Assembly: GCA_965213625.1 (NCBI GenBank)
Contig: CBDBZU010000004.1
Span: 3,712,001-3,776,000, forward strand
DNA length: 64,000 nt
Direction: 5' to 3'
Origin: a bacterium
GTDB lineage: Bacteria > UBA8248
The translations under genes and the position numbers were made by a program. This document shows positions 14,498-30,951 of the stretch, in pieces; the stretch's first letter is position 1; each line of letters opens with the position of its first letter. A model generated the notes under the pieces. The model worked only from the letters and a program-made list of their open reading frames with translations, did no database searches and was not told where the DNA came from.

Positions 14498-14531
14498 GTT
14501 GGTTGGCGCTCTGCAAGGAGGGAGTATCGAC

Positions 14532-14930
14532 ATGATAGAGAAAACGGATGCGGAATGGCGTGAGCAGTTGACGCCGGAGCAGTACCACGTCACCCGGGAG
14601 GCGGGAACCGAGCGCGCCTTCAGCGGGAAATATTGCGACTGCCACGATGACGGCATCTATACATGCGTGTGCTGCGGGGCGGAGCTTTTTGACGCCGAGA
14701 CCAAGTTCGACTCGGGCACGGGCTGGCCGAGCTTCTACCAGCCGCTCAAGTCCGAGAACGTGGGCGAGAAGGAGGACAACTCCTTCTGGATGCGCCGCGT
14801 GGAGGTGGTGTGTTCGAACTGCGACGCGCACCTGGGCCACGTGTTCCCCGACGGCCCGGCGCCCACCGGCCTTCGCTACTGCATGAACTCGGCATCGCTG
14901 GACCTGAAACCGAAAGACGTATCCGAATAG
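14532..14930 (+). CDS. msrB: Peptide-methionine (R)-S-oxide reductase
   Basis: [30 protein letters not shown], two CxxC Zn motifs. Confidence 0.95.
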
Positions 14931-15029
14931 ATTCATACGGGCATGGAGGGGCGAGACTCGCCTCATGTGACGCCCATTGCGCGAAAATTAAAGAGCGCCA
15001 TTTCAACAGGACGACAGGAGACAGCATCC

Positions 15030-15473
15030 ATGAGTATCCAACGCTTTCATAACGTATCGCTTACGGTGAAGGACGCGGACGCATCCTCAAAATGGTACGC
15101 CGAGAACTTCGGTTTCGAGGTGGAATCCGATTCCGAGCGCACGCCGGAGTTCTCGGCCCAGGTGACGGGCGTTCCCGGCGCGCACCTTCGCGTGGTGCAC
15201 ATGGGCGGTCACGGACTTCACCTCGAACTCATGGAGTACAAGGGCGCTGCCGGCGAGACGATAAACACCGACCCCAACAACACGGGCTGCCTGCAGATCG
15301 GCTTCGTGGTGGACGACGCCGAAGCCCTCTACGCGAAACTCCAGGCGGACGGGACCACCATGTGTTCGCCGGAACCCGCCACGGTGCCGAGCGGTCCCAT
15401 CCAGGGCTCCAAGATATTCTTCTGCAAAGACCCCGACGGCGTGGTGCTGAAGTTTCTCTCGATCAAGAAGTAG
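15030..15473 (+). CDS. VOC family protein
   Basis: FHNVSLTVKD, LELMEY, FFCKDPDGVVL; AGGAG RBS. Confidence 0.85.
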   Translation: MSIQRFHNVSLTVKDADASSKWYAENFGFEVESDSERTPEFSAQVTGVPGAHLRVVHMGGHGLHLELMEYKGAAGETINTDPNNTGCLQIGFVVDDAEALYAKLQADGTTMCSPEPATVPSGPIQGSKIFFCKDPDGVVLKFLSIKK

Positions 15474-15537
15474 TTTTCATAAGATTGAGCCTCCCCGAGG
15501 AGTGGAGGCTCGCGAATCGGCCTTTCTTCTCACCTGG

Positions 15538-15654
15538 GTAGGGGCGGACCGATGTGTTAGCCCTGTTGTTTGATTCCCCTCGTTTCACTAGGGACGAACT
15601 CGTAGGGGCGGACTCCTTCTCGGGTCCGCCCCACAGCTCGCGAGCCGCCCCTAC
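15538..15654. repeat. Cluster of GTAG-type REP palindromes
   Basis: GTAGGGGCGG...CCGCCC hairpins at 15538 and 15602; GAGCCGCCCCTAC ending 15654. Confidence 0.7.
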
Positions 15655-15687
15655 GGAATCTCTACCTCCTCAAGTGTTGGCGAAAAC

Positions 15688-15872
15688 CACTCCCCCCTTG
15701 AGGGTCTGGCTTCCCGAGGGGAAAGCCAGACAGTGAACTGAGGGTGTAAGCCCGAAAGTGAACTGGTGGGGGGTATGATTCGGAATAGCAATAAAACGCA
15801 TTTTACCCCCCACCGATTCAGCCTTCGCAAATATCGCTCGGCTTCATCGACTCCCCCTCAAGGGGGGAGTGA
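15688..15872. repeat. ~185-bp palindromic repeat element (copy E3)
   Basis: Inverted near-identical copy of E2. Confidence 0.9.
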
Positions 15873-15894
15873 TTATTATTAGCACAGCTATTTC

Positions 15895-16042
15895 TGGATT
15901 CCGGCATTCGCCGGAATGACGAACATCTACGTCTCAGGGATTGTAGGGACAGGCCCCTGTGCCTGTTCTGATCGCTTCCTCCTTGAAGCAGGACAACCAC
16001 GGGGGGCAGGGACGACCCCGAAGAGGGGCTCGTCCCCACTAC
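15895..16042. repeat. CGTC-type REP followed by a GTAG-type REP doublet
   Basis: TGGATTCCGGCATTCGCCGGAATGACG (15895-15921); GTAGGGACAGGC...GCCTGTTC (15943) and GTCCCCACTAC (~16042). Confidence 0.65.
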
Positions 16043-16067
16043 GATTGCGAACCTGTCCCTCATACTC

Positions 16068-16616
16068 TCAGAAATCAGCCCTTTCCTTTCGCCCAAACCG
16101 CAAACTCAACAGAAACAAAACGAACGCCGTGAGGCTCGCGAGGGTGCGGACGTGGTTCCACAGCGTCCATTCCGAGATGTAGGAGACCATCACGCCCGCG
16201 TTCTCGGGCAGGGCCGGATCCAGGGGTGCGATTACACCGTTCAAGGGCACGTTGAAGAGGCTGGTGACGCCGAAGGCGCCTACCAGATAAATGAGGGCGG
16301 CGGTAAGTGCGAACCAGCAGGCGGGGGCGTCGCGGCGAATCAGCGCGTGAAGCGCAACGGCGATACATAGTATCAAAGCGCCGAAAAAACCGAGCGCGAA
16401 GACGGCGTTCCTGACGGCGAGGTTAATCGCCTGCATGGAGGCCAGGGCGGCGAGCGGCTCCATCGCCGAGAGGCCGGGCATCACCACGAACGAGAACGCG
16501 AAGAAAAACCCGGCCATCACGCCGACCCAGACGGCGCAGGCCAGTCGCAGCCAGTAGCCAAAGGACATCGACATTACACTTCCCCAAAGGCGGCGAGTTG
16601 TGCCGAGGTCGCTCAT
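16068..16616 (-). CDS. DUF1772 / anthrone-oxygenase-like membrane protein
   Basis: AGFFFAFSFVVMPGL, MQAIN, FNVPLN, WTLWNHVRT; start may be about 14 codons downstream. Confidence 0.85.
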   Translation of the reverse strand: MSDLGTTRRLWGSVMSMSFGYWLRLACAVWVGVMAGFFFAFSFVVMPGLSAMEPLAALASMQAINLAVRNAVFALGFFGALILCIAVALHALIRRDAPACWFALTAALIYLVGAFGVTSLFNVPLNGVIAPLDPALPENAGVMVSYISEWTLWNHVRTLASLTAFVLFLLSLRFGRKERADF

Positions 16617-16785
16617 TGGCCGCCTCGCCCATATTCATTTTTCGCCATTGCGGGGGGATAAGCAAGAAGCGCCTCCGCGCAGGGTCGAACCGTATGTGGA
16701 TGATCTCCACGCACGAAGGAGTGATTCGGCAGAATATTCATATCTCCGGTCGGCAAGCCTTCACCCTTATATGAGCAGACCAATA

Positions 16786-17277
16786 AGGGCGGCTCGCGAG
16801 CCGCCCCTACAAGAAGAAAATCCCTTTTACTTTGGCGTTATCGAATACTCCCCCCTTGAGAGTCAAACCCGACTTGGTAGGGAGAACCTGTTTATTTGTA
16901 GGGGTCGCATACCATGCGACCCGCGGTTGGGCGACGAAAGAATCAGGCCGCAACATATGGGGTTGTTGAAAAACCCCGGATACGGCCCCGCAATTGCAGG
17001 CGGTGAATGCGGCGTAATACTCCCACTCGTCCTGCGCTGTCTGCCACTCCGCCTCACCCTGAGTAGCGGCGAAGCCGCGTATCGAAGGGCGAAGTTCGCG
17101 CCCGCAGGAGAGATACGCCGCCCATCCTTCGATACAGCGCTTGCGCGCCTACTCAGGATGAGGGTTGGGGACGCTTGCTCAGGATGAAGGCGTCAGGGGT
17201 TCCGCGAAGCCTGCTGCCGCGCCGGTGGGGCAGACCCTCCCGCATAGGGTTTTCAACAACCCTCAAGGGGGGAGTGA
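16786..17277. repeat. Nested repeat cluster: GTAG REPs, split palindromic element, MITE ends, CTCACCCTGAG-type REP doublet
   Basis: ACTCCCCCCTTGAG (16847) ... CTCAAGGGGGGAGTGA (17277) enclosing GGGGTTGTTGAAAAAC (16959), CCTCACCCTGAGTAG...CTACTCAGGATGAGG (17052-17163) and TTTTCAACAACCC (17262). Confidence 0.75.
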
Positions 17278-17429
17278 TTCTCCTCTCCACCCGGAGTTCA
17301 TATGGAATCTCTTCTCCCCCAGCCTGCCTTGCGGTCGTTCCCTTGCGGGGCCACAATGCGCCCGCCTGTTCCTGCAAGGCGCTGAGGTGGTCCCATATCC
17401 GAATTTCAATGACGAAAAAGGGAGACGCC

Positions 17430-18425
17430 ATGAGCAAGCCGTCCATCGCGATAGTGACGACCGGGGGGACGATATCGTCCAAATACGACACGCGCGGAGG
17501 GGAGAACGTACCTGCGGCGAGCGCGGAGGAGTTGGTCGCATCCGTTCCCGAGCTTGCGGGTGCGGCCCAGGTGCGCGTCGTCGAGCACTCGAACGTCACC
17601 AGCGACGTGATGGAGACGGCTACCGCCTTTGGGCTCCGCGACCGCCTGCGCGGGATTCTGGCGGATGAGGAAACAGCGGGGGCCGTGATCACACACGGGA
17701 CGGCCACGATGGAGGAGACGGCCTATCTGTTGGACTTGACCCTGGGCGGTGAGAAGCCCGTGGTGATTACGGGCGCGATGCGCAATTCCGTCGCCCGTGA
17801 CGCGGACGGTCCCCGGAACATCTTCTACGCAGCGAAGATAGCGGCCTCCCCCGAAGCGCGGGGCCGGGGCGTGACGGTCGCGCTGGACGGCGAGATATTC
17901 GCCGCGCGCGACGTCATCAAGGTGCACAGCCAGCGGCCCCACGCCTTTGCGTCGAGAGACGGCGGGCCCATCGGCGTGGTTTCGGATGAGGGCGTCTTTT
18001 TTCACTACCGCCCGGAGCGGCGGCTCCACTTCGAGGTGGACACCGTGAAGGAAAACGTGCAGTTCCTCACCGTGACCCAGGGGGTGAACGACCTGCTCGT
18101 GCGCGCGTGCATCAAAGAGGGGGTGGACGGCATCGTGGTGGAGGGCGTCGGCGCGGGCAACGTGAACGTGCCCTTCCACCACGCCCTGTGCGACGCGCTC
18201 GATGCGGGAATCCCCGTGGTGATCGGGGTGCGCATCTTCGCAGGCGCGCCGCACCGCGCGAAGGCGCATGAGGGCTCTTTCCGCAGCCTGATCGAGCGCG
18301 GGGCGATTTCGGCAGGCTACCTGAGCGGCATCAAGGCCCGGACCCTGCTGATGGTGGCGCTGGCGCACACGCAGGATTCGGGAGAGCTGCAGGATATTTT
18401 CGAGCGCGCCGGCGGACGAGCCTGA
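17430..18425 (+). CDS. Asparaginase family protein
   Basis: TTGGTI, THGTATMEETAY, VITGAMR, DGPRN, EGVGAGN. Confidence 0.92.
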   Translation: MSKPSIAIVTTGGTISSKYDTRGGENVPAASAEELVASVPELAGAAQVRVVEHSNVTSDVMETATAFGLRDRLRGILADEETAGAVITHGTATMEETAYLLDLTLGGEKPVVITGAMRNSVARDADGPRNIFYAAKIAASPEARGRGVTVALDGEIFAARDVIKVHSQRPHAFASRDGGPIGVVSDEGVFFHYRPERRLHFEVDTVKENVQFLTVTQGVNDLLVRACIKEGVDGIVVEGVGAGNVNVPFHHALCDALDAGIPVVIGVRIFAGAPHRAKAHEGSFRSLIERGAISAGYLSGIKARTLLMVALAHTQDSGELQDIFERAGGRA

Positions 18426-18711
18426 AGACGCGGGGAGCGCCGTCGCCTTCCCGGTCGGCAATGCCGAGTTCCTCGCCCTTAATTCGCAGCCTTCCCCTCC
18501 CCGGTGAAACCTGACCCTCCTTGCTCAGTCGGGTTCGTCCTCTTTCCTCGGGCGGATTCGACCAACTCATCTCTCCTCATTCGGCGTCATGGATTTACGC
18601 GGCGACGGGCATGCCGGAGAGAGCGTCTGAATGCCCCCGGTTTTTTCAGGAGCGAGGACGGTGCGGATAGACGACTGCGGTCGTTCGCTCAGGCGATGAG
18701 GAGAAGGCAGA

Positions 18712-18787
18712 TAATGCAAATAATAATTTCTGAAAATATCGATAAATTTAGATAAATTCACGGGGTATTGCGATAAATTACCGACAA
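18712..18787. repeat. AT-rich repeat, inverted copy of 21245-21313
   Basis: AAATATCGATAAATT...CACGGGGT...CGATAAAT shared in opposite orientation. Confidence 0.7.
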
Positions 18788-18895
18788 TTTATTTTGTTGG
18801 GAAATGACACCGCGGAACCGCGACGCATGAGGATTCTGCCATGGTCAGCGCCTTCTCGCGTGACGGCAAATGCGCGGAACTGCGGGGAGTTGCGC

Positions 18896-19351
18896 CTAGG
18901 AGACGCTCATCTTGCGCCCGCTCTCGTACCACTCGGGACCAGGCTGTTCTGGGGGGTCGTCGTAGCGTTTGATCTCGAGTTCGACGTTGTCGGGATCGTA
19001 GAAATAGGTGGCATAGCCCACGCCGTAGGCGCCCAGGTTCTTCTCCTCGCCGCGGTGAGGCTCCCGGCCGCTCGCCCGTAAACGATTGATAACATTGTGA
19101 TATTCGGCGTCATCCATGCAAAACGCGAGGTGGTCCATCCCGCCTTTCACCTCGACGTCATCGGACACGAAATCTGCGGCGTGAAACAGGACGAGGATGT
19201 CCTCCCCCACGCGGAAGACGACCTGGTCGATATCGCCGCCGTGGATGAGCCTTCGGCCGACGGGCTTGAAGCCCATCACGTCGCGATAAAACGCGATGGA
19301 TTCATCGAGATTCGTGACGCGCAAGGCGACGTGTTCGATCATTCGTTTCAT
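18896..19351 (-). CDS. VOC family protein
   Basis: IEHVALRV, MDHLAF, YFYDPDNVELE. Confidence 0.85.
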   Translation of the reverse strand: MKRMIEHVALRVTNLDESIAFYRDVMGFKPVGRRLIHGGDIDQVVFRVGEDILVLFHAADFVSDDVEVKGGMDHLAFCMDDAEYHNVINRLRASGREPHRGEEKNLGAYGVGYATYFYDPDNVELEIKRYDDPPEQPGPEWYESGRKMSVS

Positions 19352-19379
19352 GGCGGCCTCCTTATTCTGGAGGAGGGGG

Positions 19380-19901
19380 CTAGTCGTCGTAGGCTTTCAC
19401 CGTGGGAACCGTGATGGGGGATTCGGGTTCGGTTCTGCCCTCGGCTACGGCGCGAATCGCCTCGATGATCTGACGATAACCCGTGCAGCGGCAAAGGTTC
19501 CCGGTGAGCCAGTGCCGAATTTCATCCTCGGAGGGGTCGGGATTCTCATCGAGGAGTTTCTTGGCCGATACGATCATCCCGGGCGTGCAGTAGCCGCACT
19601 GCGTTGCGCCATAAGAGGCGAAAGCGGCTTGTAAGGGATGTAAATCATCAAGGCCGCCGAGGCCTTCAATCGTCTCGATGTTCGCGCCGTCGGCGCGCAC
19701 CGCGAGGACAAGACACGAACTGATGAGTTCACCATCCATGATGATCGAGCAGGAGCCGCACGCGCCCTGATCGCAGGCGCGCTTGGTGCCCATCATGTCC
19801 AAATCTTCGCGGATCAAGTCAACCAGATAGCGGTTCACGGGAACCATCACTTCGACGGGCTCTCCGTTGAGAACGAAGGATATCATCTTTTTTTCAGACA
19901 T
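19380..19901 (-). CDS. (2Fe-2S)-binding small subunit, CoxS/xanthine dehydrogenase family
   Basis: CDQGACGSC, QCGYCTPG, GNLCRCTGY. Confidence 0.92.
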   Translation of the reverse strand: MSEKKMISFVLNGEPVEVMVPVNRYLVDLIREDLDMMGTKRACDQGACGSCSIIMDGELISSCLVLAVRADGANIETIEGLGGLDDLHPLQAAFASYGATQCGYCTPGMIVSAKKLLDENPDPSEDEIRHWLTGNLCRCTGYRQIIEAIRAVAEGRTEPESPITVPTVKAYDD

Positions 19902-19985
19902 TTCGATCCCCCACAATTTGCGGCCGTGCGCTGTTTTTTTATACTTCCACTATACCACGATTCCGCCCGGCGTGCACAGATAGCC

Positions 19986-20999
19986 TCATATCTTCCTGAG
20001 CTCCGGGATGAGTTCGTCCGAGATCATCCGCATGCTGTGAAGCGCCGTGGAAAGCGGCATTCCCGCCCAGTGCGTACGGATGATGAGATGGCTCATGCCG
20101 ACTTCCTCCCAGTAGGGGCGAAGCTGCTCGTAGCACTCCTCGGGCGAGCCGATGATGAAGCGATCTTTCAGCAAATCGTCGAATTCATGGTCGAAGCTCT
20201 CATCATCCGGCATGGCGTCGTCCTGTCCCCACTTGGCGTAATCCTGGTACTTGCCGAACAGATAAGGCCCCGCCATCTCGAGGGCGGTCTTCCTGTCGTG
20301 GCTGCAGAAAATCTCCTTCATGCAGGGGAAATCCGCCGGGAACGGCTTGCCGCATCGATCCAGTTCCGCGCGGTAGAGGGTCATCTGCCGCTTGATGGTC
20401 GCCGTGGTGGAATGCGGGTTGATGAACCAGTTGTCGCCGATGCGCGCTGCTCGCTCGATGGCCTTGTCGTTGTTCGCCGCCACCCAAATGGGTGGATAGG
20501 GCTTCTGCACGGGGCGGATGTTCATGCGCACGCCGTCCAGCTTGCAGATCTCATCCTCCCAGGTCACCTCCTCCTCCGTCCAGAGGCGCTTCACGAGTTC
20601 GAGGCACTCCTCGAAGCGGCGCACGCGCTGTCCCTTCGGCACCTGGAAGGCGTCGAACTCCGCCTTGCGGTAGCCGAGCCCGATGCCGAACACGAAGTTC
20701 CCCCGGCAGAGCACGTCCATCGTCGCCACCGTCTCGGCCACGTATACCGGGTTGTGGAGGTTGATGAGCAGGATGCCGAGCCCGAGCGTCATCTCGCCCG
20801 CTTCGGCCTGCAGCCGCGCGAGGAACGGCACTATCTGGAGCTGTTTGTTGTCGCCCTCGTTCAGGTAGTGCTGCCCGGTGAAGAGCGAGTCCCAGCCCTT
20901 GTCGCGCGCGAGGCGCACCATGGCGTACTGCTCGTCCAGGGCGCTGACCATGTCGGTTTCCAGGTGCTGCTGGTTGGTGATGAAGAGCCCTACTTTCAT
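19986..20999 (-). CDS. LLM class flavin-dependent oxidoreductase
   Basis: FTGQHY, NPVYVAETVATMD, GIGLGYR, PPIWVAAN, IIGSPEE. Confidence 0.9.
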   Translation of the reverse strand: MKVGLFITNQQHLETDMVSALDEQYAMVRLARDKGWDSLFTGQHYLNEGDNKQLQIVPFLARLQAEAGEMTLGLGILLINLHNPVYVAETVATMDVLCRGNFVFGIGLGYRKAEFDAFQVPKGQRVRRFEECLELVKRLWTEEEVTWEDEICKLDGVRMNIRPVQKPYPPIWVAANNDKAIERAARIGDNWFINPHSTTATIKRQMTLYRAELDRCGKPFPADFPCMKEIFCSHDRKTALEMAGPYLFGKYQDYAKWGQDDAMPDDESFDHEFDDLLKDRFIIGSPEECYEQLRPYWEEVGMSHLIIRTHWAGMPLSTALHSMRMISDELIPELRKI

Positions 21000-21244
21000 G
21001 TCACGTTCCCTATATGTAAGTGGATGGTTGGAGGCTACCATACCGCAAGGTCCTTCATATTTCTATGCTGGGGAGGCTTTACTGCATGATGGAAGGGGGA
21101 GAGGGGAACTGCGGGGAAATGCGGGGTGCGAAAAAACTTTTTTTATTCGAAAAAATTCGATAAAATATTCTTCTTCTGCTTGAATCCATTCTCATAACCG
21201 ACTGAAATAATATCGGTTACTCCTTCGATTTCCTTGCCGTTCGT

Positions 21245-21313
21245 TTTCAGATATTTATCGAAAAACCCCGTGAATTTATCGATATTTACAGGAAATACGA
21301 TTATTTTCATATT
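21245..21313. repeat. AT-rich repeat, inverted copy of 18712-18787
   Basis: ATTTATCGAAAAACCCCGTGAATTTATCGATATTT. Confidence 0.7.
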
Positions 21314-21613
21314 CATTGTGAGCCCCGAGTCCATGAATACCCCTCCCCGGCGAGAAAAAGCCCCCCTGACAAGGGGGGTTGGGGGGTTCGCCGCCTTCAC
21401 TCTCGCCGCATCACTGAATTCCATGAGAAAGCCTCCGCGCCTTTTGTCAATTCCGACTGAGAAAGAAGGAATCGACCAACTCATGCGGGAGAAATCGTTT
21501 TCCCGCGACGCGCGCACGATAGCGGAATACGGGGTTAGTGGGAGTACGGCAATTGCGGGGAAATGCGGGGTCAATTTCGGGTGAAGTACGTGGGTTTGCC
21601 GATTGAGGTGCTT

Positions 21614-22065
21614 GTAGGGACAACCCCCCGTGGTTGTCCTTCGTCAGGGTTGGCGCCATAAAACCGGGCGGACACAGGGGTCCGCCCCTACAAACCGCGA
21701 ATCGAGATTACCGTCATTCCGGCGCATGCCGGAATCCAGAACGAATTTGGTAGGCGCTTTACGGCGTTTCATCCGCCTTCTGTGCAGTCAGGCTGCCGAA
21801 AGAAAAGAATGTCATAGGCGAAACCCCTGGATTCCGGCATACGCCGGAATGACGAGGCTTTGAAACACTCCCCCTTGAGGGTCAATCCCGATTGAAGAAT
21901 GAGGGATTGTCGGTGAAGCCGAGCGATTTGTGCGAAGATTGAATCGGTGGGGGGACAATCGCGACTGATGAAGAAGTGATTGCATACATGTAGGGGCGAA
22001 CCCCTTTATCCGCCCTATGGCGTAAGAGGGTAAAGATACCGTAGGGGCGGCTCGCGAGCCGCCCG
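21614..22065. repeat. REP array: GTAG doublet, CGTC doublet, partial palindromic element, two more GTAG REPs
   Basis: 21614-21691 GTAG...CTAC doublet; 21711-21854 CGTCATTCCGGC doublet; 21866-21954 CACTCCCCCTTGAGG arm; GTAGGGGCG units at 21990 and 22041. Confidence 0.8.
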
Positions 22066-22114
22066 TGTGGTCCAGGCAACCAAGAAAGGACGAAAAGTAT
22101 GACGTACCTTGAAT

Positions 22115-25100
22115 TTATCCAAGTCCCAGACTTGCGCGAAGCTCTTCCAGTTTCTCCTTGAAATCATCCGGGATGTCGGATGCGACGAGTTTCTCGACAA
22201 GCGCCTTGCCTCCATGCCACGCATATGATGGCGATTCACACCCGCCTATATGAATCAATAACTTCGCAACCGCCTCCGGATAGCGTTGCCACAAATCAGA
22301 CAGATTGATATCAGAAACTAACAAGCCACGTTGGAGCGGAACTTTCGGCATACGAACCGCCAAGTCGACTGCTTCGGGAAACATATTGCCTTGTAAGCAG
22401 GAAGACCATTCAAGCATGCTTTCGATTTCACCGGAATCGAGTTGTCTGGGAATTCCTTGCAGGCGATTTTCCCAATACTGCTTGAGCCAACGTGACCACC
22501 ATTCCCGTTGTCCCTCTTCATTCATATGAAGAAGACTTTGGTGTATTTGTGTTGCGAAATAATTCCGGTCCTCTTCACCAGCATAATCAAATAACCTGGG
22601 AATCCAAACTTCAAGAGGCTCATCGACAAAATAGGCAAGCATTTTGATATAGGCATTGATGAATACTTCACGTCGATGCCCATCAAAATATGTACCTTGG
22701 ATATGAGGAACAGCCTCAAAAAAAGCATCCTTCATCAACTCGGCCACGGACTGGCTGAGTGATGCATATTGGAAACCATCCCATACCGCCTGAATTTCAC
22801 CTATATTGTCATGCGCTTTGAAAGAGGGCAGCAAATTCTCTTTCGTCCATTTTTTATCGACCACCAACAAAAAAGGAAGCTGGCTTGCGAGAACAGATCG
22901 CCCCAATCTACCAATCAGAGATTCATCTTGAGCGATGCAAGAAAGCGCGTCGTAATAAACGCCGCTCAGTGAATCAGGCATTGGGTCTTGTTGTCTTCGC
23001 CACAAAGACAAACTTCCAAGCCAGTATTCAGCGATCTTACCGCCAGCGTGGTTGATGGCATAGCTGTCCCAATTAGATGGATTTTCAAACTGTTCATCGC
23101 GGTCTAAATGTTCCCATAATCCTAGGGCAATCTCGTTGGCTTCTCGAAGCAAAGTAGGCGCATAAGGCACACCGCCGTTCCTTACGAGCGAATAAAGGAA
23201 ATCCGCAATCCAATGAGCGTGTTTCCGATATAGTTTGTTTCTATCCAATCGGAAGAGTACTTGGCGATGTGCATACTCGGTTAACTCATTCGACCACGCA
23301 CGAATCAGAATTGGCCAAAGATCGGTATCCCACTCACTGCGCTTAACCAATTCATCAGCTAGTTCGATGCCCCATTTAAAATTCTGCTTTGCCGCACCCT
23401 CGACAACAAGAACGAGTCCCTCACGGTTAGGGCCGAGAATATCTATCGGTTGGAAAGACAATAGATCATCCACCCAATCTTTCGCCGGTCGTGCCAGCAG
23501 TCCCTCTACACTCCAAGGACTTTGAGTGCCACTTCCTGTACTGGACCAAGACAATAGATCTGGGTATTCCCTTTGTTGAAAATTAGGATATTGCTTCGAT
23601 ATTTCGTTTAGAGCATTTTGAGCAAGAGTACAGTCGGGATCGGAACGATTTAGCCAATGAAGCCACGTGAAATGTTGATATGAGGTACGCTGCTCCTTAT
23701 TTTCATCTTCAGGATTGGGCCAAGAAAATGCGTGCACGGACTTTATGATGGCTTTGCGCCGTTTCGAGTCGGCATTGGGATAAGCTTTTTCCAGAAACAT
23801 AAACACTTCATGACGCGCCGGAGTATCGTGCAAATCCATGCGAGTCAGAAGCCAGTCAATTTTCTCGTTTGGAGTCAAATCTTCGCGTTTAAGCAATATA
23901 TGTACCGCCAATCGACGCAATAATGGCGCATCCGAGTCGATAAGCTGGTCGCACCATCGCGCCGCCACCTCAGGCCGATTTGATAACAAATATTCCAGAG
24001 AATCTCGGGCCGCATCAATCAATACATCTACAGTCCCTGGAATTCTATCCTGTTCATGAGGTTCGATTGCGCTACGACGAAAACTTGCTGGTTCATAAAT
24101 GCGTGACGCTTTCCCCCAAGAGCAGAGAGTGTGGAATTGCGCTGACAATTGCTCGACAACGCTTGTGAGCAGCGGGGCAACTAAGTTGTCGAGGTTCGGT
24201 TTTAGTCCTTTTTCCCAGAGTTCGTTGACCTCATAATGATCACTGAGTGATGACAATTCCACCCGGACAGATGGGCGTGGGTTTTCCTTCTCGTCATCGG
24301 ACAAATGAAAACCTCGCTCAATCTTGAGACAGCCAGCCGCACAAGTGATGAAAATTTCGAGAAGACTAGTCATCAATCCCGTTTCAATGCAACGATTTCC
24401 CAACCATAAAAACACGTGCTTATACGGCCGCGCTGGAACAGTAGCAAGTAATAATGAAACCCAACTCGATAAGTTTTTTTCGTCTATTGGCGTATTGTTT
24501 TGCAATCCGATAGTGCGTCCTAACACAAACCAGAAGGTTGGATGCAATTGCATCTCGTGTCGACCAATAAGTAGAAAAAGTGAATCTGAGTGTTCACATG
24601 CAAAAGTATTTGCTAACCACTCCGCCAGTTCGCGTTTATGTTCACTCAATTCACCAACGCCAAAGAGGCTGTCGAGATACTTACGTTGATCGAGCCAGTC
24701 GATCCATTCAGGCGATAAGGCGGCATTAGTGAAGAACCGTGCTTTCGCTTCGTCCAAGAACGCGTCTTCAATGAGGCACATCTCCTCCTCGTTAAGTGAG
24801 GGTGGTTTCCCAGCAATCTCCGTTATTTCACGCTGCCAGCCTAGAATGCCACGTGTTGAATAACTGGCAAGACGTTGGATGCCAAGGTAAAGACTACAAT
24901 GTTGGTCACCAGCAACTCTTTCATAGATAATCGGTTTAATACCGAGAATTTGCCATCGGTCACTTATAGCTTCGGTCGTAATCGCAAAACGCCCTTTTGT
25001 TTCACTAGTTGTTAAGGCCCGGGCCAGATATTTCATAATCGTGTCGTCGTGACTGTAGCCGACAAAGAGAACGGTAAAATTGCGGAAGAGTTCGACGAGA

Positions 25101-25654
25101 AAACGCCCTGCCCATCCATCGCTTAGGTATGCGCGACCAAAATCTGCGTCAGTCAACACCATGTCTAAAGGATGGCTGACTGCACCATGAAGGTGGACAA
25201 TTCCGTTGAAATCTCGTCCTAAAGGAAGTGCCGGAGCGCGAAACACTTCGGGATTCGGGTCGAAAATATCTTGTGCTGCCCTCTCGAATAACAATTCGAA
25301 GTTCGTCGTTACGATTCGAGTCGATTCCGTTTTGGAATATAGCCGTAGCAGATCACGGTGCAATTCGTTCGGCTTTGAATTTTTGTTAGAGAGTATCTCA
25401 GAGGCTAACTCATGCACTTTCGTGCCTCTTTCCTTTTTTAGCCTGCCGAGAAATTGATCATCAGTTTCACCATCTTTCTGTGTTTCTCCTGTACCTCGTG
25501 CGATCAATTTTGTTAAACACTTAAAATTCGGGAGATTCGCCGGTTTTCCCATCGAAACGCCTGCACCCGCGAAAACGACCAGCTTGTTGTCTCGCAGGGC
25601 GTCCAATAATTCTCTCGGAAAATCAATGCCTGCAATTTTCACTCTTGACTCCAA
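22115..25654 (-). CDS. SIR2-family NADase with long C-terminal region (DUF4020-like); Dsr1-like anti-phage protein
   Basis: VFAGAGVS, VTTNFE, VHLHG, LFVGYSHDD; Trp-rich C-terminus (WWSRWLKQYWENR); markedly AT-richer than its neighbours. Confidence 0.8.
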   Translation of the reverse strand: MESRVKIAGIDFPRELLDALRDNKLVVFAGAGVSMGKPANLPNFKCLTKLIARGTGETQKDGETDDQFLGRLKKERGTKVHELASEILSNKNSKPNELHRDLLRLYSKTESTRIVTTNFELLFERAAQDIFDPNPEVFRAPALPLGRDFNGIVHLHGAVSHPLDMVLTDADFGRAYLSDGWAGRFLVELFRNFTVLFVGYSHDDTIMKYLARALTTSETKGRFAITTEAISDRWQILGIKPIIYERVAGDQHCSLYLGIQRLASYSTRGILGWQREITEIAGKPPSLNEEEMCLIEDAFLDEAKARFFTNAALSPEWIDWLDQRKYLDSLFGVGELSEHKRELAEWLANTFACEHSDSLFLLIGRHEMQLHPTFWFVLGRTIGLQNNTPIDEKNLSSWVSLLLATVPARPYKHVFLWLGNRCIETGLMTSLLEIFITCAAGCLKIERGFHLSDDEKENPRPSVRVELSSLSDHYEVNELWEKGLKPNLDNLVAPLLTSVVEQLSAQFHTLCSWGKASRIYEPASFRRSAIEPHEQDRIPGTVDVLIDAARDSLEYLLSNRPEVAARWCDQLIDSDAPLLRRLAVHILLKREDLTPNEKIDWLLTRMDLHDTPARHEVFMFLEKAYPNADSKRRKAIIKSVHAFSWPNPEDENKEQRTSYQHFTWLHWLNRSDPDCTLAQNALNEISKQYPNFQQREYPDLLSWSSTGSGTQSPWSVEGLLARPAKDWVDDLLSFQPIDILGPNREGLVLVVEGAAKQNFKWGIELADELVKRSEWDTDLWPILIRAWSNELTEYAHRQVLFRLDRNKLYRKHAHWIADFLYSLVRNGGVPYAPTLLREANEIALGLWEHLDRDEQFENPSNWDSYAINHAGGKIAEYWLGSLSLWRRQQDPMPDSLSGVYYDALSCIAQDESLIGRLGRSVLASQLPFLLVVDKKWTKENLLPSFKAHDNIGEIQAVWDGFQYASLSQSVAELMKDAFFEAVPHIQGTYFDGHRREVFINAYIKMLAYFVDEPLEVWIPRLFDYAGEEDRNYFATQIHQSLLHMNEEGQREWWSRWLKQYWENRLQGIPRQLDSGEIESMLEWSSCLQGNMFPEAVDLAVRMPKVPLQRGLLVSDINLSDLWQRYPEAVAKLLIHIGGCESPSYAWHGGKALVEKLVASDIPDDFKEKLEELRASLGLG

Positions 25655-25670
25655 TAGCTACTCAAGTCAC

Positions 25671-25748
25671 CGGGCGGCTCGCGAGCCGCCCCTACGGGTA
25701 GAGAGAGATATTCGACCAGACCGGGCGGACACATCGGTCCGCCCCTAC
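25671..25748. repeat. Two GTAG-type REPs in reverse orientation
   Basis: CGGGCGGCTCGCGAGCCGCCCCTACGG and GGGCGGACACATCGGTCCGCCCCTAC. Confidence 0.85.
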
Positions 25749-25849
25749 ACCCCCTTTACAACTCCCACAATCCCTCCCTCCTCGGTCGGGTAATCGAACT
25801 CCCCCTCATCGGGGAAGCGCAATCCCTCCCTACTCAGTCGGGATTCACC

Positions 25850-26620
25850 TCACACAAACAACCTAACCCCCGGAAACACCTCCTCCCTCCTCAGGTCCGT
25901 CTCGTCGTGTCCGGCGAAGATGAGGTCGGGCGCGTCGGCCAGGTCCTTCACGGTCTCGAGCGCGCGCAGGGCGTCGTCCACGTGGATGTGGATGCCCGGC
26001 GGTATCATGGATTCGAGGCTCCGGTAGAGATAGGCCGCGTCCACGGCCAGCACCGCCCAGCCCCGCGCCGTGCGGAAGCGGATGATCTGGTGGCCCGGCG
26101 TGTGGCCGCCCACCCAGTGGACATGCACGCCCTCCGCTATCTCCGCCTCCCCGTCCACGAGATTCATGCGGCCTGCTTCAAGTAGCCGCTCGGCTTCTTC
26201 CAAATCGCCCAGGAAATGGTTGATGAAGTGGTATTCCGCCGCGTCGCTCCGCCAGAAATCAAGCTCGCGCCTCTGGAGATAAAAGCGCGCCCCGGTGAAC
26301 AGCCTCGGGGACATGAAGTGGTCCCAATGCAGATGGCTCACGATCATCGTCTCGACTTCCGAGGGTTTGAGATCGAAATGCTTCAGCAATTCATGCTGCG
26401 GGCGGTAGTCCGCGTAATCCGGGTTCCGCGCCTTCTGGGATTCCTCGCTGAAGCCGGTGTCGATAACGACCGGCGCGCCCCCGCCTTCGGGCATCAGCAC
26501 CCAGAAGAAATAGGGCAGCGTGCGCGTCCTCCCCGATTCACTCAAGTAAAGGAGCCAGGAGGCGTCGCACGCGCGCGAGCCCTGGCACAGGGCGTAGAGG
26601 TTGTAGGTCGTCTCGCTCAA
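25850..26620 (-). CDS. MBL-fold hydrolase, N-acyl-homoserine lactonase family
   Basis: VIDTG, SHLHWDH, GGHTPGHQ, FAGHD; GGAGG RBS before TTG. Confidence 0.88.
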   Translation of the reverse strand: MSETTYNLYALCQGSRACDASWLLYLSESGRTRTLPYFFWVLMPEGGGAPVVIDTGFSEESQKARNPDYADYRPQHELLKHFDLKPSEVETMIVSHLHWDHFMSPRLFTGARFYLQRRELDFWRSDAAEYHFINHFLGDLEEAERLLEAGRMNLVDGEAEIAEGVHVHWVGGHTPGHQIIRFRTARGWAVLAVDAAYLYRSLESMIPPGIHIHVDDALRALETVKDLADAPDLIFAGHDETDLRREEVFPGVRLFV

Positions 26621-26733
26621 GGTGATACCTCCGTGTTGTCCCGCTCGAAGGGATAGTTGGAAAAGTCCACAGAAGGAGCTCTCTAAATTTCACTCCCCCT
26701 TGAGGATGAATCACAATCATCGAAAGAGGAAAT

Positions 26734-26873
26734 TCACTCCCCCCTTGAGGGGGAGTCAGTGAAGCCGAGCGATTTGTGCGAAGGCTGAATCGGTGGGGGG
26801 ACATGCCACAGAAAAAGCTCCCCCCACCAGTTCGCCTGCGGGCTTGTGCCCTTAGCTCACTGACTCCCCCTCA
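26734..26873. repeat. Palindromic repeat element (copy E5) interrupted by the IS; remainder at 28395-28410
   Basis: TCACTCCCCCCTTGAGGGGGAGTC...GCTGAATCGGTGGGGGG...ACTCCCCCTCA | IS | CTCAAGGGGGGAGTGA. Confidence 0.85.
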
Positions 26874-28394
26874 GGGGTCTGTTGAAAAACCCGGTGTTGG
26901 AAGCGGGCGTTTTGGCGGCTCACGCGGCGGCGGGGAGGCAGCCCAATCGGCGCGTGAGGGCGCCATGTGCGCGCAGCCGGCGTCTCCGGGCGGCACAGGC
27001 CGTCCACAAGGCGAATATACGCGCCGCAAAAGCGGCGGCCAGCCGCTTGAGGTTCACCGCTATCGCCGTCAGGTAGGACTGGATCCGCATGTTCGCAAGG
27101 CCCCGGCGCACCGCCCGCCCCAGTCCGTGCCGGCTCTTCGCCTCGCCGTGGTAGCCCTCCGAGCGCCAACGGTGGCGGCCATAGAGACGCTTCTCCTCCT
27201 CCCCCCAGCGCGCATGCCGCCGACGCGCGCGCAACAGCGCCGGATACGCGTGCGGAATCAACACCGTCCTGCTCGTGCGCGACTTCGACAGACAATCGGG
27301 CCTGAGCGCGCAGCCCGCGCAATCCCGCGTCTTCGATACATAGGAGCGCCCCCGCTCCGTCGCCTGCCGGGGGCGCAGCGTCTTGCCTCCCGGACACTTC
27401 ACCACCTCGTTGCGCGCGTCGTAGTGGAACAACTGCAGCGGAACACGGCTCTGGCTGGGTTCCTTCTTCGCTGGTATCAGCGCTTCCACGCCCCGCCGCT
27501 CCAATTCGCCATAAACCTTCGAGTACGCGTACCCCGAATCCGCCGTCACCATCTCCGGCGTGCGGCCCGACAACTCGCTTACCGCCTCTATATGGGACGC
27601 CATCATCTCACGCTCGTTCCGCGTCCCCTCCGTCACCGACACGTCGAGAACAACACCCCGCTCATCGTCCACCGCCGCGTGCTGCTTGTAGCTCGGCTCG
27701 AACCCCGCCCGCGCGCTCTTGCGCGCAAGCCGCGCGTCCGGGTCCGTCCGGCTCACCGGACCCCCGCCACCGCGGCCTCCTCCCTTCTTCCCGACCTCAT
27801 CATCGACGGGATTCTCCTGAATCACCTTCTCCGCGTGGTGCGCCGCCAGGCTCTCCCAGCTCACGTCCGCGCGTATCAACGAGGCGTCCACGTGCACCAC
27901 TTCCCCCTTCGCCACATTCGCCTCCAGGCAAGCCTGCACCGTGCGACGGAATATCTCCTTGAACCGTGCCTCCCCCCAGCGCTGACGTATCCGCGTCAGG
28001 CTCGAATGATGCGGCAACTCCTCGTGCAGCCCGTACCCGATGAACCACCGGATCGCCAGGTGCGCACGCGCCTCGCGAAGCAGGCGACGGTCGTGTACGT
28101 AGCCCAGCAACATACCCGCCAGCATCAAGCGGAGCGCCACCTCCGGGTCGATCCCCGGACGACCGTTATCCGCGCAATAGCAATCCGCCACCTCCTCCCG
28201 TAGCCAGCTCAAATCCAGTACGTGGTCCACGCGCATCAGGACGTGATCCTCGGGGATCAGCCGTTCCAGCGAACCGGCCACGAACAAATCCATCTGCTCG
28301 CGCCTCTTGCTGCCTATCATCGAGGGAACTCCCATCTCGGGCGAGATAGTGTCATTACACCCAATCACAATGCCGGGGCTTTTTCAACAGCCCC
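26874..28394 (-). mobile_element. IS1182-family insertion sequence
   Basis: TIRs GGGGTCTGTTGAAAAAC / GCTTTTTCAACAGCCCC; CTCA duplicated at 26870-26873 and 28395-28398; transposase inside. Confidence 0.9.
26920..28320 (-). CDS. IS1182-family DDE transposase
   Basis: IPEDHVL, GRPGIDP, LPHHSSLTRIRQR, VDAS, ADSGY, CxxCxxxxxC, EGYHGEAK, NLKRL. Confidence 0.92.
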   Translation of the reverse strand: MIGSKRREQMDLFVAGSLERLIPEDHVLMRVDHVLDLSWLREEVADCYCADNGRPGIDPEVALRLMLAGMLLGYVHDRRLLREARAHLAIRWFIGYGLHEELPHHSSLTRIRQRWGEARFKEIFRRTVQACLEANVAKGEVVHVDASLIRADVSWESLAAHHAEKVIQENPVDDEVGKKGGGRGGGGPVSRTDPDARLARKSARAGFEPSYKQHAAVDDERGVVLDVSVTEGTRNEREMMASHIEAVSELSGRTPEMVTADSGYAYSKVYGELERRGVEALIPAKKEPSQSRVPLQLFHYDARNEVVKCPGGKTLRPRQATERGRSYVSKTRDCAGCALRPDCLSKSRTSRTVLIPHAYPALLRARRRHARWGEEEKRLYGRHRWRSEGYHGEAKSRHGLGRAVRRGLANMRIQSYLTAIAVNLKRLAAAFAARIFALWTACAARRRRLRAHGALTRRLGCLPAAA

Positions 28395-28605
28395 CTCAAG
28401 GGGGGAGTGAAATTCAAAAGCTTGCGCGCAACCCTAAACCGCTTCCCGGCACTTTTCCAATAACCTCCGAAGCCGCGGGGCGCGGGATGAATGACGAAGC
28501 AAATCTTCGTTGTCCGAAGCAAGAGATTATGCCATTATCACCGGAGCGCAAAACGTAAATTTCGGTATTCGGTTCACAGAAAACCATTCCCGAAGGGCGC
28601 ACGTT

Positions 28606-30951
28606 TTGGACAACACCTTCATCATCGTGTTCTTCCCGTTCGCAGCCGCCCTCATCATCCCATGGTTCGCAGAGCGTTTCCGCAAAAACGCCGCGTGGTT
28701 CGCCATGGTCGCGCCCCTCGTCAGCACCTGGGCGCTCTATAATCTTTACGGCGAATGGGCCGCCGGCGGCCGGCAGACTTTTACGCGGGCCATCGCCTGG
28801 GTCCCCGCGGCGAACGTGGAAATCTCCTTCATGGTGGACGGCTTGAGCCTCATGTGGGGCCTCCTCGTGGCGGGCATGGGCGCGCTCATCGTCCTCTACT
28901 CCCACTGGTATCTGCACGAACACGAAGCGCTGGGCCGCTACTACGGCTTTCTCATCGCGTTCATGGGCTCGATGCTGGGCGTCGTGTTCTCAGACCACCT
29001 GATATCACTCTTCATCTTCTGGGAACTCACGAGCATCACCTCGTTCTTCTTAATCGGCTTCTGGTCGGACAGGGAGGCGTCCAACTACGGCGCGACCAAG
29101 GCCATCCTCATCACGGGCAGCGGGGGCCTCGCCATGCTCGGGGGATTCCTGCTCTTAGGCGACGTGGCGGGCGAGTGGCGGCTCTCCCAACTCGTACTCA
29201 TGCCCGGAATCGCGAGCCAGATATCGCTCGGCGTCTTCTTGCTCATCATCCTGGGCGCCGTGACGAAGAGCGCGCAGTGGCCCTTCCACATCTGGCTGCC
29301 GAACGCCATGGAAGCGCCCACGCCCATCAGCGCTTTCCTGCACTCGGCCACCATGGTGAAAGCGGGCATCTATCTCCTGTCGCGCTTCTATCCCATCCTG
29401 GGCGCGCATCCCGCCTGGGGCTACGTGGTCACGGGCTTCGGCATGACGACGATGATAGCGGGGGGCCTGCTGTCCCTGCGCGCGTATGATCTAAAAGCCA
29501 TACTGGCCTACGGCACCATCAGCCAGTTGGGCCTCATCGTCACCTTCCTGGGCTTCGGCGGCAAGGGGGCGATCATCGGCGCGACACTCCATCTCTACAA
29601 CCACGCGGCGGCCAAGGCGGCGATGTTCATGACGGTGGGCATCATCGACCACGAGGCGGGCACGCGCGATGTTCGGCTGCTCGGCAACTTGCGAAAACTC
29701 ATGCCGAAAACGCATATACTCGCCGTCATCGCAGCGCTGAGCCTCATCGGCATACCGCCCATGGGCGGGTTCATCACCAAGGAGATGCTCTATGAAGTCA
29801 GCCTCCACCCCGGCGGCCCCGGCAGCTGGGCGTGGTTCTGGCCGTATATCACCGTGTTCGCGGGAGTGTTCACCGCGCTCTATCACTTAAGGTTCTTAAG
29901 CGAACCCTACTGGCAGGCGGCGGAAGGGGAAGCGCCCAAGCATCCACACGATCCGCCACTCGGGATGCTGGCGGCGCCCGCAATACTCGTTCTTCTCGCG
30001 CTCGCATTCGGCTTGGCGCCCGGCCTCATCGAGAACGCCATCGTGGCCCCCGCGGCGCAGGCCACCCTGGGCGGAGGGGCGCAACTGGAACTCCACTTAG
30101 GCCTCTGGCACGGGGTGAACATGCCCCTCATCATGTCGATTATCACCATGGCGCTGGGGCTCGCGCTTTATTTCGGCTTCGCGCACGTCAAGACCGTGCT
30201 GGACACGGTCGCCCGCGCCTGGGGGAATGCCCCCTCTCCCAACAGGATATACGACGGATTCATCGACTGGCTGAGAAACGGCACCTGGGAGATTCTCCTC
30301 CTGATACAGGACGGGAACCTCAGGCGCTACATGCGCTGGATGATGGTGCTCCCCACCGCCGCCGCCCTCTACCTCGTCTGGCGGATGGACTGGGGGACGA
30401 AGGTTTTCCCTGAGAATTTCGCGGGCGCGTCGTTTCTGCTCGTCGTGATCGCGCTCATGATCACGGGCGCAGCCCTCGCCACGGCGCTCTTCAAGCGGAG
30501 AATCGCCGCCATCCTCGCTCTCGGCACGATGGGCTACGGCATCGCGGGGCTTTATTTACTCCTGAAAGCGCCCGACTTGGCCCTCACCCAGATTATGGTC
30601 GAATCGGCCTCGGTCGTGCTGTTCCTGCTCGTGTTCTACTACCTGCCCGAGCTCAAGCCCGTGCCCTCATCGGCCGCGAAGAAGATTCGGGATTGGGGTA
30701 TCGCTATCGGCCTCGGCGTCTGTACGACACTCGTCATGGCCGCCGCCATGAACACGCACAAGTTCAGGACGATTGCGGATTACTTCATGCGCACGAGCAA
30801 GCCCGTGGCCGGGTTCAAGAACGTGGTCAACGCCATCATCGTCGATTACCGAGGGTATGACACGCTGGGCGAGATCACCGTGCTGGTCATCGCAGGGATA
30901 GCCGTCTACGCCCTCTTGCGGCTGGTGGGAGAGATGAAATGCGATCACTGA
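28606..30951 (+). CDS. mrpA: Na+/H+ antiporter subunit A
   Basis: [58 protein letters not shown]; start set to TTG 28606. Confidence 0.92.

What the first reader, a model, noticed from the sequence alone, without database searches (positions are those of the whole stretch)
21990..25748. Dsr1-like SIR2 defence gene sitting as cargo inside a perfect inverted REP pair
Seen: the AT-rich 3.5-kb SIR2 gene is tightly bracketed by CCGTAGGGGCGGCTCGCGAGCCGCCCG (22039-22065) and its exact 27-bp reverse complement (25671-25697). These lie 49 bp beyond the stop and 16 bp before the start. A second, looser inverted GTAG pair lies just outside (21990-22016; 25723-25748). No integrase or transposase is adjacent. 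Known: GTAG REPs form short inverted doublets (REPINs) and are substrates of HUH transposases (RAYT/TnpA-REP); other doublets in this window span under 150 bp. Inference: a REP doublet has captured or delivered a foreign anti-phage gene. That would be a REP/RAYT-based cassette route for defence genes, which I do not know to be described.
Basis: partly seen in the sequence, partly recalled or inferred. Interest (0 to 1): 0.82.

Follow-up and report, generated by a model that had tools for sequence, protein, structure and literature searches.

The report
REP-edged defence-gene slot, not a transposon
The anti-phage gene really is framed by two mirror-image hairpin repeats, but it sits in a chromosomal slot where related bacteria keep many different defence genes, which move together with scraps of neighbouring genes, so the repeats mark the edges of swapped DNA and probably help the swapping without being the ends of a jumping element.

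Summary
Observation confirmed: a GC-0.47, Dsr1-like SIR2 gene lies between two identical inward-facing GTAG REPs (REP-A), with a looser outer pair. The 27-bp match is the REP consensus plus common flanks. The gene fills a variable slot behind a lactonase gene. None of 16 syntenic relatives has it there: 3 are empty, most hold restriction-modification or other cargo, and none has an exact REP-A pair. The REP link is real but partial. A/B REPs point into foreign genes (own genome 7 in/0 out, native genes 10/18, p=0.003; relatives 12 vs 3 of 27 sites). One orthologue (70% nt) keeps both REP ends at another locus. One empty/filled pair breaks in the REP core. Against a REP-bounded mobile unit: a second orthologue has no REPs; cassettes drag 35-199-bp relics of the lactonase 3' end (8 in 6 of 22 genomes); only 1 of 358 foreign genes is bracketed; no polarity outside the genus (9 of 17). 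Best reading: integrase-free defence slots exchanged by homology-anchored recombination, with REP doublets as landing pads and short homology. RAYT catalysis is not shown. The scan noted similar cases on other DNA (e1-6661339, e1-3046352, e1-7533108).

The parts
22115..25654 (-). Dsr1-like SIR2 gene (1179 aa from TTG; probable start GTG 25642). N-terminal SIR2_2 domain, weak C-terminal DUF4020 match
   Evidence: PADLOC Dsr1 1.5e-71; Pfam SIR2_2 3.5e-18; NCBIfam Dsr1 291 bits, far below the 1400 cut-off; N118/H156 have the same 38-residue spacing as DSR2 N133/H171
22041..22064 (+). REP-A at the 3' end of the gene: GTAG foot outward, perfect 20-bp palindromic core
   Evidence: identical beside the G003 orthologue
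25672..25695 (-). REP-A at the 5' end of the gene, GTAG foot outward
   Evidence: identical beside the G003 orthologue
21990..22015 (+). Degenerate REP-B, tandem with REP-A; this B+A unit recurs without SIR2 in G002, G013, G016 and G020
25723..25748 (-). REP-B behind the lactonase stop; a slot-resident repeat, also present in the empty alleles
   Evidence: 8 of 16 syntenic relatives have an inward REP within 200 bp of the lactonase stop
25850..26620 (-). Metallo-beta-lactamase-fold lactonase gene, the proximal anchor of the slot; its last 35-199 bp recur as relics ahead of cassettes
21600..21989 (.). Mosaic of other repeats: a short REP doublet 21614-21691, a palindrome-ended element 21711-21860, and a multicopy repeat 21860-21985
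21244..21574 (.). Multicopy non-coding element at the distal side of the slot; no Rfam match
19986..21041 (-). Luciferase-like monooxygenase gene, the distal anchor of the slot

Best explanation
The SIR2 gene is one of many interchangeable cassettes, mostly defence genes, held in integrase-free chromosomal slots behind the 3' ends of conserved genes in this genus. Shown: the slot, the variable cargo, the inward polarity of A/B REPs, gene-end relics between stacked cassettes, and the same cargo at different slots. Inferred: (1) short GTAG-outward REP doublets colonise these slots and foreign DNA lands between the two hairpins, so each REP then points into the cargo; (2) cassettes spread between strains and slots by recombination anchored in the core gene's 3' end (or a relic of it) on one side and in REP/MITE repeats or an illegitimate joint on the other, which pushes older cassettes downstream and leaves relics of variable length; (3) the 20-bp core is a perfect palindrome, so an inverted pair is also a direct repeat, and crossover between cores can delete (or admit) cargo and leave a single or double-foot REP. 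The SIR2 protein most likely depletes NAD+ on phage infection, by analogy with DSR1 (not tested).
For: Slot: 16 syntenic relatives have 1.0-10.3 kb between the anchors, 3 without cargo; cargo includes type II, ISP and III RM, a helicase, DUF4062 and asparaginase. Polarity: own genome 7 in/0 out at foreign-gene edges vs 10/18 at native ones, p=0.003; the T-class control is not enriched; relatives 12 vs 3 of 27 site clusters, p=0.035. Relics: 8 lactonase 3' relics of 35-199 bp in 6 of 22 relatives, 5 of them at other slots, plus relics of other anchor genes. The G003 SIR2 block moved with a 199-bp relic beyond its REPs. Core crossover: G002 (empty) vs G013 (HEC-01-like cassette), 96-97% identical, overlap by 22 bp in the REP core; a double-foot REP-A lies in this slot in G016. 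A ComEC gene is present. Precedent for anchored insertion that leaves displaced gene ends: PMC5361080 (passages).
Against: No exchange or intermediate was observed. REP-A is 48/48 identical beside G000 and G003 while fourfold-degenerate sites of the gene are 67/117 identical and the inner spacers 43/50 and 14/17, which suggests a protein or gene conversion acting on the REPs rather than passive homology. A 20-24-bp core is short for RecA-type recombination (general knowledge). In the G002/G013 pair the direction (gain or loss) is unknown. 12 of 27 site clusters show no polarity, and relatives are not independent.
Confidence: 0.55

Rival explanations
1. RAYT-driven cassette route. A REP-guided HUH transposase nicks single-stranded DNA near the REPs and joins it elsewhere, moving cargo with outer ends of variable length; double-foot REPs are the empty landing sites.
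For: RAYT-like genes in 19 of 23 genomes. B-type and REP-A-like repeats flank or interrupt RAYT genes in relatives, with one exact REP-A beside the G007 RAYT. E. coli TnpA-REP cuts at CT on either side of, and far from, the hairpin and does strand transfer (PMC3479197, passages), which could give variable relics. REP-A is conserved against diverged cargo. A run-X8 contig aligns up to 25695, exactly the GTAG foot.
Against: The relic junctions show no consistent C|T signature on visual reading. The base after the hairpin is G in 23 of 42 copies and T in 12. G000's RAYT copies are flanked mainly by the CATATATG class and carry no REP-A, and that class shows no polarity. The G020 orthologue moved without REPs. 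No second copy of the cassette is in the genome. [quoted passage not shown]
Confidence: 0.2
2. Bystander or regulatory REPs. They insert independently into permissive intergenic DNA at hotspots and are kept beside defence genes as RNA hairpins that tune mRNA stability or read-through from the upstream core gene. They play no part in the movement.
For: Half of the slots (8 of 16) have no proximal REP and cargo starts directly behind the lactonase stop. Most A/B REPs lie between native genes. Outside the genus the same 24-mer shows no polarity, 9 of 17. No sigma-70-like promoter was found on the gene's strand, so read-through across the hairpins is plausible.
Against: Inward REPs occur at both the 5' (10) and 3' (6) ends of foreign genes, i.e. 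in both senses relative to transcription. One breakpoint lies in the core. Independent insertion does not predict 7 in/0 out.
Confidence: 0.15
3. A site-specific tyrosine recombinase acting in trans, possibly on the multicopy element at 21244-21574, reshuffles gene blocks and cassettes; REPs collect at its joints.
For: 29 phage-integrase-family matches in the genome, many in pairs. The element often precedes REP-A and cargo. The G003 SIR2 block adjoins a copy of it at a rearranged site.
Against: Relic lengths vary from 35 to 199 bp, unlike a fixed att core. No recombinase is in the window. Many slots lack the element.
Confidence: 0.1

Closest known systems
REPIN/RAYT system (PMC3116915 passages; bioRxiv 10.1101/2021.07.10.451892 passages) and subclass-2.4 double-foot REPs (PMC6006769 passages)
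   Same: GTAG foot plus hairpin; inverted doublets with the foot outward dominate (56 vs 12 under 150 bp); RAYT genes with flanking and internal REPs; double-foot forms, which PMC6006769 says could arise by central deletion of an inverted dimer.
   Different: Here the spacer is a 3.6-kb gene; the unit is single-copy; moved copies carry DNA from beyond the REPs. No gene cargo is described in the passages read.
Core defence hotspots cDHS1/2 of Pseudomonas aeruginosa (PMC10250203 passages)
   Same: Conserved flanking core genes, highly variable defence content, no single mobile element; recombination through conserved flanks is proposed.
   Different: These slots are small (1-10 kb), several per genome, trade cargo with one another, and are marked by polar REPs and gene-end relics; the passages read mention neither.
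Sequential displacement in Vibrio cholerae T6SS effector-immunity arrays (PMC5361080 passages; PMC8189183 passages)
   Same: New modules enter at an anchored end, older ones shift downstream and displaced 3' gene ends remain; homology-facilitated illegitimate recombination is proposed; no integrase is known.
   Different: The anchor here is an unrelated metabolic gene, the cargo is anti-phage genes, relics also seed other slots, and REPs mark the edges.
REPs at recombination points around E. coli O157-antigen clusters (PMC3158064 passages)
   Same: REP positions coincide with some horizontal-transfer junctions; a role in exchange is speculated.
   Different: No polarity or bracketing is reported there, and only a few cases.
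DSR1 defence-associated sirtuin (bioRxiv 10.1101/2021.12.14.472415 passages)
   Same: Single large protein with an N-terminal SIR2 domain; best PADLOC and NCBIfam match.
   Different: Far below the NCBIfam equivalog cut-off; activity untested.

Membership tests
GTAG REP | GTAG foot followed by a short GC-rich hairpin, extragenic, multicopy | tested here: met
   322 GTAG hairpins vs 64 in a shuffle; a stricter scan gave 168, 15% inside called genes
GTAG REP | Cognate RAYT gene flanked by the same REP | tested here: inconclusive
   B and REP-A-like types flank RAYTs in relatives; G000's two RAYT copies have no REP-A within 1.5 kb
REPIN (non-autonomous REP doublet) | Two inverted REPs with GTAG outward | tested here: met
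REPIN (non-autonomous REP doublet) | Short spacer and a multicopy unit | tested here: not met
   3.6-kb spacer; one copy of the gene in the genome
REPIN (non-autonomous REP doublet) | Excision of the doublet as a unit | tested here: inconclusive
   No joint between the two REP sites among the 15 joints shown (76 not shown); only contigs were available
REP-bounded (composite) transposon | Both boundaries fixed at the repeats in relocated copies | tested here: not met
   The G003 copy extends 199 bp into the lactonase gene; the G020 copy ends inside the REPs
REP-bounded (composite) transposon | Transposase acts on these ends | not testable with these tools
   needs biochemistry
Integron gene cassette | Integrase beside the array | tested here: not met
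   none of 29 PF00589 matches is in the window
Integron gene cassette | Directly repeated attC site at each cassette | not tested
   no attC model was run; the repeats seen are inverted REPs and variable gene-end relics
Core defence hotspot | Conserved flanking genes, variable defence cargo, no single MGE | tested here: met
   16 syntenic relatives of 22
DSR1 | N-terminal SIR2 domain in a single protein of about 1200 aa, catalytic Asn/His present | tested here: met
   (residue identity inferred from motif and spacing)
DSR1 | Full-length score above the curated cut-off | tested here: not met
   291 vs 1400 bits
DSR1 | NAD+ depletion and phage defence | not testable with these tools
   experiment needed

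The most novel reading that the evidence does not exclude
A/B-class REPs work as polar attachment sites of an integrase-free cassette system. A RAYT-type HUH enzyme opens double-foot or doublet REPs and swaps defence genes in at the palindromic core, so a network of REP-marked slots trades anti-phage cassettes across the genus. This would give RAYT/REP systems the host benefit that has been inferred but not identified.
Probability: 0.2. Interest if true: 0.85.

Novelty: new variant of a known kind. Interest (0 to 1): 0.52.

Why it matters
How defence genes enter hotspots that have no integrase is open, and so is the benefit that keeps RAYT/REP systems in genomes (the latter argued in 10.1101/2021.07.10.451892, passages). 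This genus offers countable traces: polar REPs at cassette edges, an empty/filled pair that breaks in a REP core, and dated layers of cassettes separated by gene-end relics. These make both questions testable from strain genomes and with one enzyme assay. The slots are also a source of unannotated candidate defence genes. Searches for REPIN+RAYT+cargo, REP+defense system+flanked+tyrosine transposase, RAYT/mobiliz/passenger/REPIN, hotspot/palindromic/cassette exchange, REP/recombination hotspot/BIME and RAYT/anti-phage/defense island/REP listed no paper that describes REP-bracketed defence cassettes. Most hits were seen as listings only, and the library lacks most subscription papers.

Tried and rejected
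(1) The 27-bp match as a terminal inverted repeat: rejected; it is the 24-mer consensus plus common flanks. (2) Assembly artefact: rejected. (3) A link to IS1182: no evidence; the IS is multicopy and absent from this position in most relatives. (4) Polarity as a general property of this REP: not seen in metagenome loci, 9 of 17 testable single-foot copies; about 80 of 124 loci were held, and two of the 17 may belong to this genus. No match in viral contigs. (5) A simple GC sign test on own-genome A/B singlets was not significant (22 of 33, p=0.08), although GC<0.55 lay ahead of 11 and behind 2. (6) CT signature at junctions: inconsistent, read by eye. (7) A structured RNA in 14500-29000: no credible Rfam hit. 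(8) Promoter or terminator: nothing above the shuffle level. (9) Excised circles or empty alleles in reads: only contigs, no joint listed between the REP sites, not proof of absence; no RNA holder listed. (10) Cassette inversion between the inverted cores: the pentapeptide cassette has the same orientation wherever seen. (11) Inverted repeats around 7 other SIR2 loci: only chance-level arms. (12) PDB: only SIR2-domain matches. Caveats: gene calls came from my own composition heuristic; some low-GC 'genes' are shadows of the 21244-21574 element; 'foreign' means GC3 below 0.60-0.62. One search used 52 fetched loci plus 7 own-genome sites; 6 REP-A regions fetched later were viewed but not counted. 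One of the 4 'any inward pair' slots (G009) probably rests on a spurious hairpin. Part of the output was cut. Supplements were not read.
Full report
Observation. The bracket is real. Exact copies lie at 22039-22065 and 25671-25697 around a 1179-aa ORF on the minus strand with GC 0.46-0.48, and looser GTAG hairpins lie outside. The protein is Dsr1-like but far below the NCBIfam cut-off. Contigs of runs X1 and X2 (one study, possibly the source) cover 21713-25919 and 21713-26745 with 0-1 differences. Two details need correction: the 27-mer is the 24-base family consensus with flanks shared by 8 of 42 distinct copies, and an IS1182 gene lies one gene away.

The repeats. The chromosome holds about 320 GTAG hairpins against 64 in a shuffle, and short doublets mostly have the foot outward (56 vs 12). 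The abundant CATATATG class flanks the genome's RAYT-like gene and a second copy with an internal stop. REP-A is rare (4 exact copies). In relatives, RAYT genes occur in 18 of 22 genomes, and some are flanked or interrupted by B-type or REP-A-like repeats. The REP-A core is a perfect 20-base palindrome (seen directly), so the inverted pair is at the same time a direct repeat of the core.

The locus is a slot. Of 22 same-genus genomes, 16 have the LLM and lactonase genes syntenic. The interval is 1.0-10.3 kb; three hold no cargo, none holds this SIR2 gene, 8 have an inward REP within 200 bp of the lactonase stop, 4 have some inward pair over 500 bp (one probably spurious) and none has an exact REP-A pair. 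Cargo includes type III, type II and ISP restriction-modification genes, a helicase, DUF4062 and asparaginase. Near-empty doublets filled only with other repeats occur in G016, G017 and G013, and a double-foot REP-A in G016.

Orthologues. G003 carries the gene (70-72% nt to ours) with homologous B+A ends on both sides, but at another slot and followed by 199 bp of the lactonase 3' end (two contigs of a fragmented assembly). REP-A is 48/48 identical, the inner spacers 43/50 and 14/17, and fourfold-degenerate sites 67/117. G020 carries a frameshifted copy 90-92% identical to G003's with no REP; homology stops at the stop codon and about 8 bp before the start. A contig of run X8 aligns up to the GTAG foot at 25695 and goes on unaligned (not inspected further). 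Among distant SIR2 genes, G012's is framed by a variant inward pair, one in G022 has a 5' REP only, and those of G017, G008 and the second in G022 have none. None of three near-full-length homologues from other phyla is directly bracketed, though L149 has one REP pointing into its low-GC block.

Polarity. In the own genome, A/B REPs within 400 bp of the edges of 358 low-GC3 genes point in 7 times, out 0 and both ways 3; at 1806 native genes the counts are 10, 18 and 4 (Fisher p=0.003 for direction and 0.003 for inward rate); the CATATATG class is not enriched. Only 1 of the 358 is bracketed on both sides at that distance; two more brackets appear with a looser distance or repeat match. In ten relatives plus own-genome sites, 67 single-foot REP-A copies form 27 site clusters: 12 point into foreign genes, 3 away and 12 neither (p=0.035, kin not independent). 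Outside the genus the same 24-mer shows no polarity (9 of 17) and is often double-foot (38 vs 43 single). Cargo at REP-A edges includes HEC-01-like, AbiL-like, ZorB-containing, PD-T4-7-like, PDC-S and RM genes, but also pentapeptide-repeat and anthrone-oxygenase genes.

Boundaries. The same cargo appears at different slots with the inner REP flank conserved and the outer flank changed (DUF4062, HEC-01); at other sites the outer flank is kept and the cargo differs. One clean pair, G002 empty and G013 filled, overlaps by 22 bp in the REP core, with a degenerate second core at the far end. But cassettes commonly begin with a relic of a core gene's 3' end: 8 lactonase relics (35, 65, 71, 81, 90, 102, 102, 199 bp) in 6 of 22 genomes, 3 stacked in this slot and 5 at other slots, and similar relics of other anchor genes (some may be paralogues). 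Many relics are followed by cargo with no REP at all. The junctions show no consistent CT.

Mechanism. Variable-length relics and stacking fit anchored insertion as proposed for V. cholerae effector arrays (PMC5361080), within hotspots like cDHS (PMC10250203); ComEC is present. Polarity follows if cargo first lands inside foot-outward doublets, and core crossover explains the G002/G013 pair and the double-foot forms (a possibility noted in PMC6006769). I put this at 0.55. RAYT catalysis (0.2) stays open, because TnpA-REP cuts at a distance and rejoins (PMC3479197) and REP-A is better conserved than its cargo. Regulatory or bystander REPs (0.15) and a trans-acting tyrosine recombinase (0.1) are the other rivals.

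Novelty. The parts are known; the combination of polar REPs and gene-end relics marking a network of small defence slots was not found in the searches named under Why it matters. The scan's earlier AI notes describe like cases on other DNA; they are leads, not support. The assignment of the genus to Nitrospinota comes from such a note and was not checked. Verdict: new variant of a known kind, interest 0.52.

Noticed in passing
window 15602-16810: A second REP-marked slot: a fused B/A doublet and a REP-A frame the anthrone-oxygenase gene. G013 has an inward pair with one degenerate foot there; G008 holds two GC-0.40 genes, each followed by a REP; G020 has a double-foot REP-A.
   Followed up: partly
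window 17175-18425: The asparaginase gene (with or without the anthrone-oxygenase gene) sits here in G000 and G005 but inside the lactonase slot, in opposite orientation, in G002, G004, G006, G013, G016, G018 and G021.
   Followed up: partly
window 21244-21574 and 18743-18778: A multicopy element whose 45-bp core has about 60 matches in the genome; inverted copies bracket the glyoxalase-ferredoxin-LLM block.
   Followed up: partly
G000 C4:1759370-1760727 (L154): An inward REP-A pair around a GC-0.49 gene whose G008 homologue has pentapeptide repeats; the slot holds varied cargo in about 16 relatives and 69-245-bp relics of its anchor gene.
   Followed up: yes
L073:3401-8587 (G011): A four-gene block ending in a ZorB-like gene, framed by exact inward REP-A copies and preceded by a 65-bp lactonase relic; three genes have no Pfam or PADLOC match.
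   Followed up: partly
L163:3940-6100 (G022): An HEC-01-like cassette flanked by direct repeats of a long B-type REP variant; its 5' junction is at the same hairpin foot as in G013 and G020, where the repeat is REP-A.
   Followed up: partly
L091:5953-9034, L099:6482-8644, L100:2837-4487, L102:3058-4095: Low-GC cargo at REP-A edges with few or no defence annotations (one block has AdoMet decarboxylase and DUF3326 matches): candidates for unrecognised defence genes.
   Followed up: no
L023, L062, L018, L031, L078, L358 (just behind the lactonase stop or relic): A shared cassette leader with promoter-like hexamers precedes different RM cargo, read by eye.
   Followed up: no
window 26920-28368: IS1182 with many near-identical copies in the genome.
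   Followed up: no
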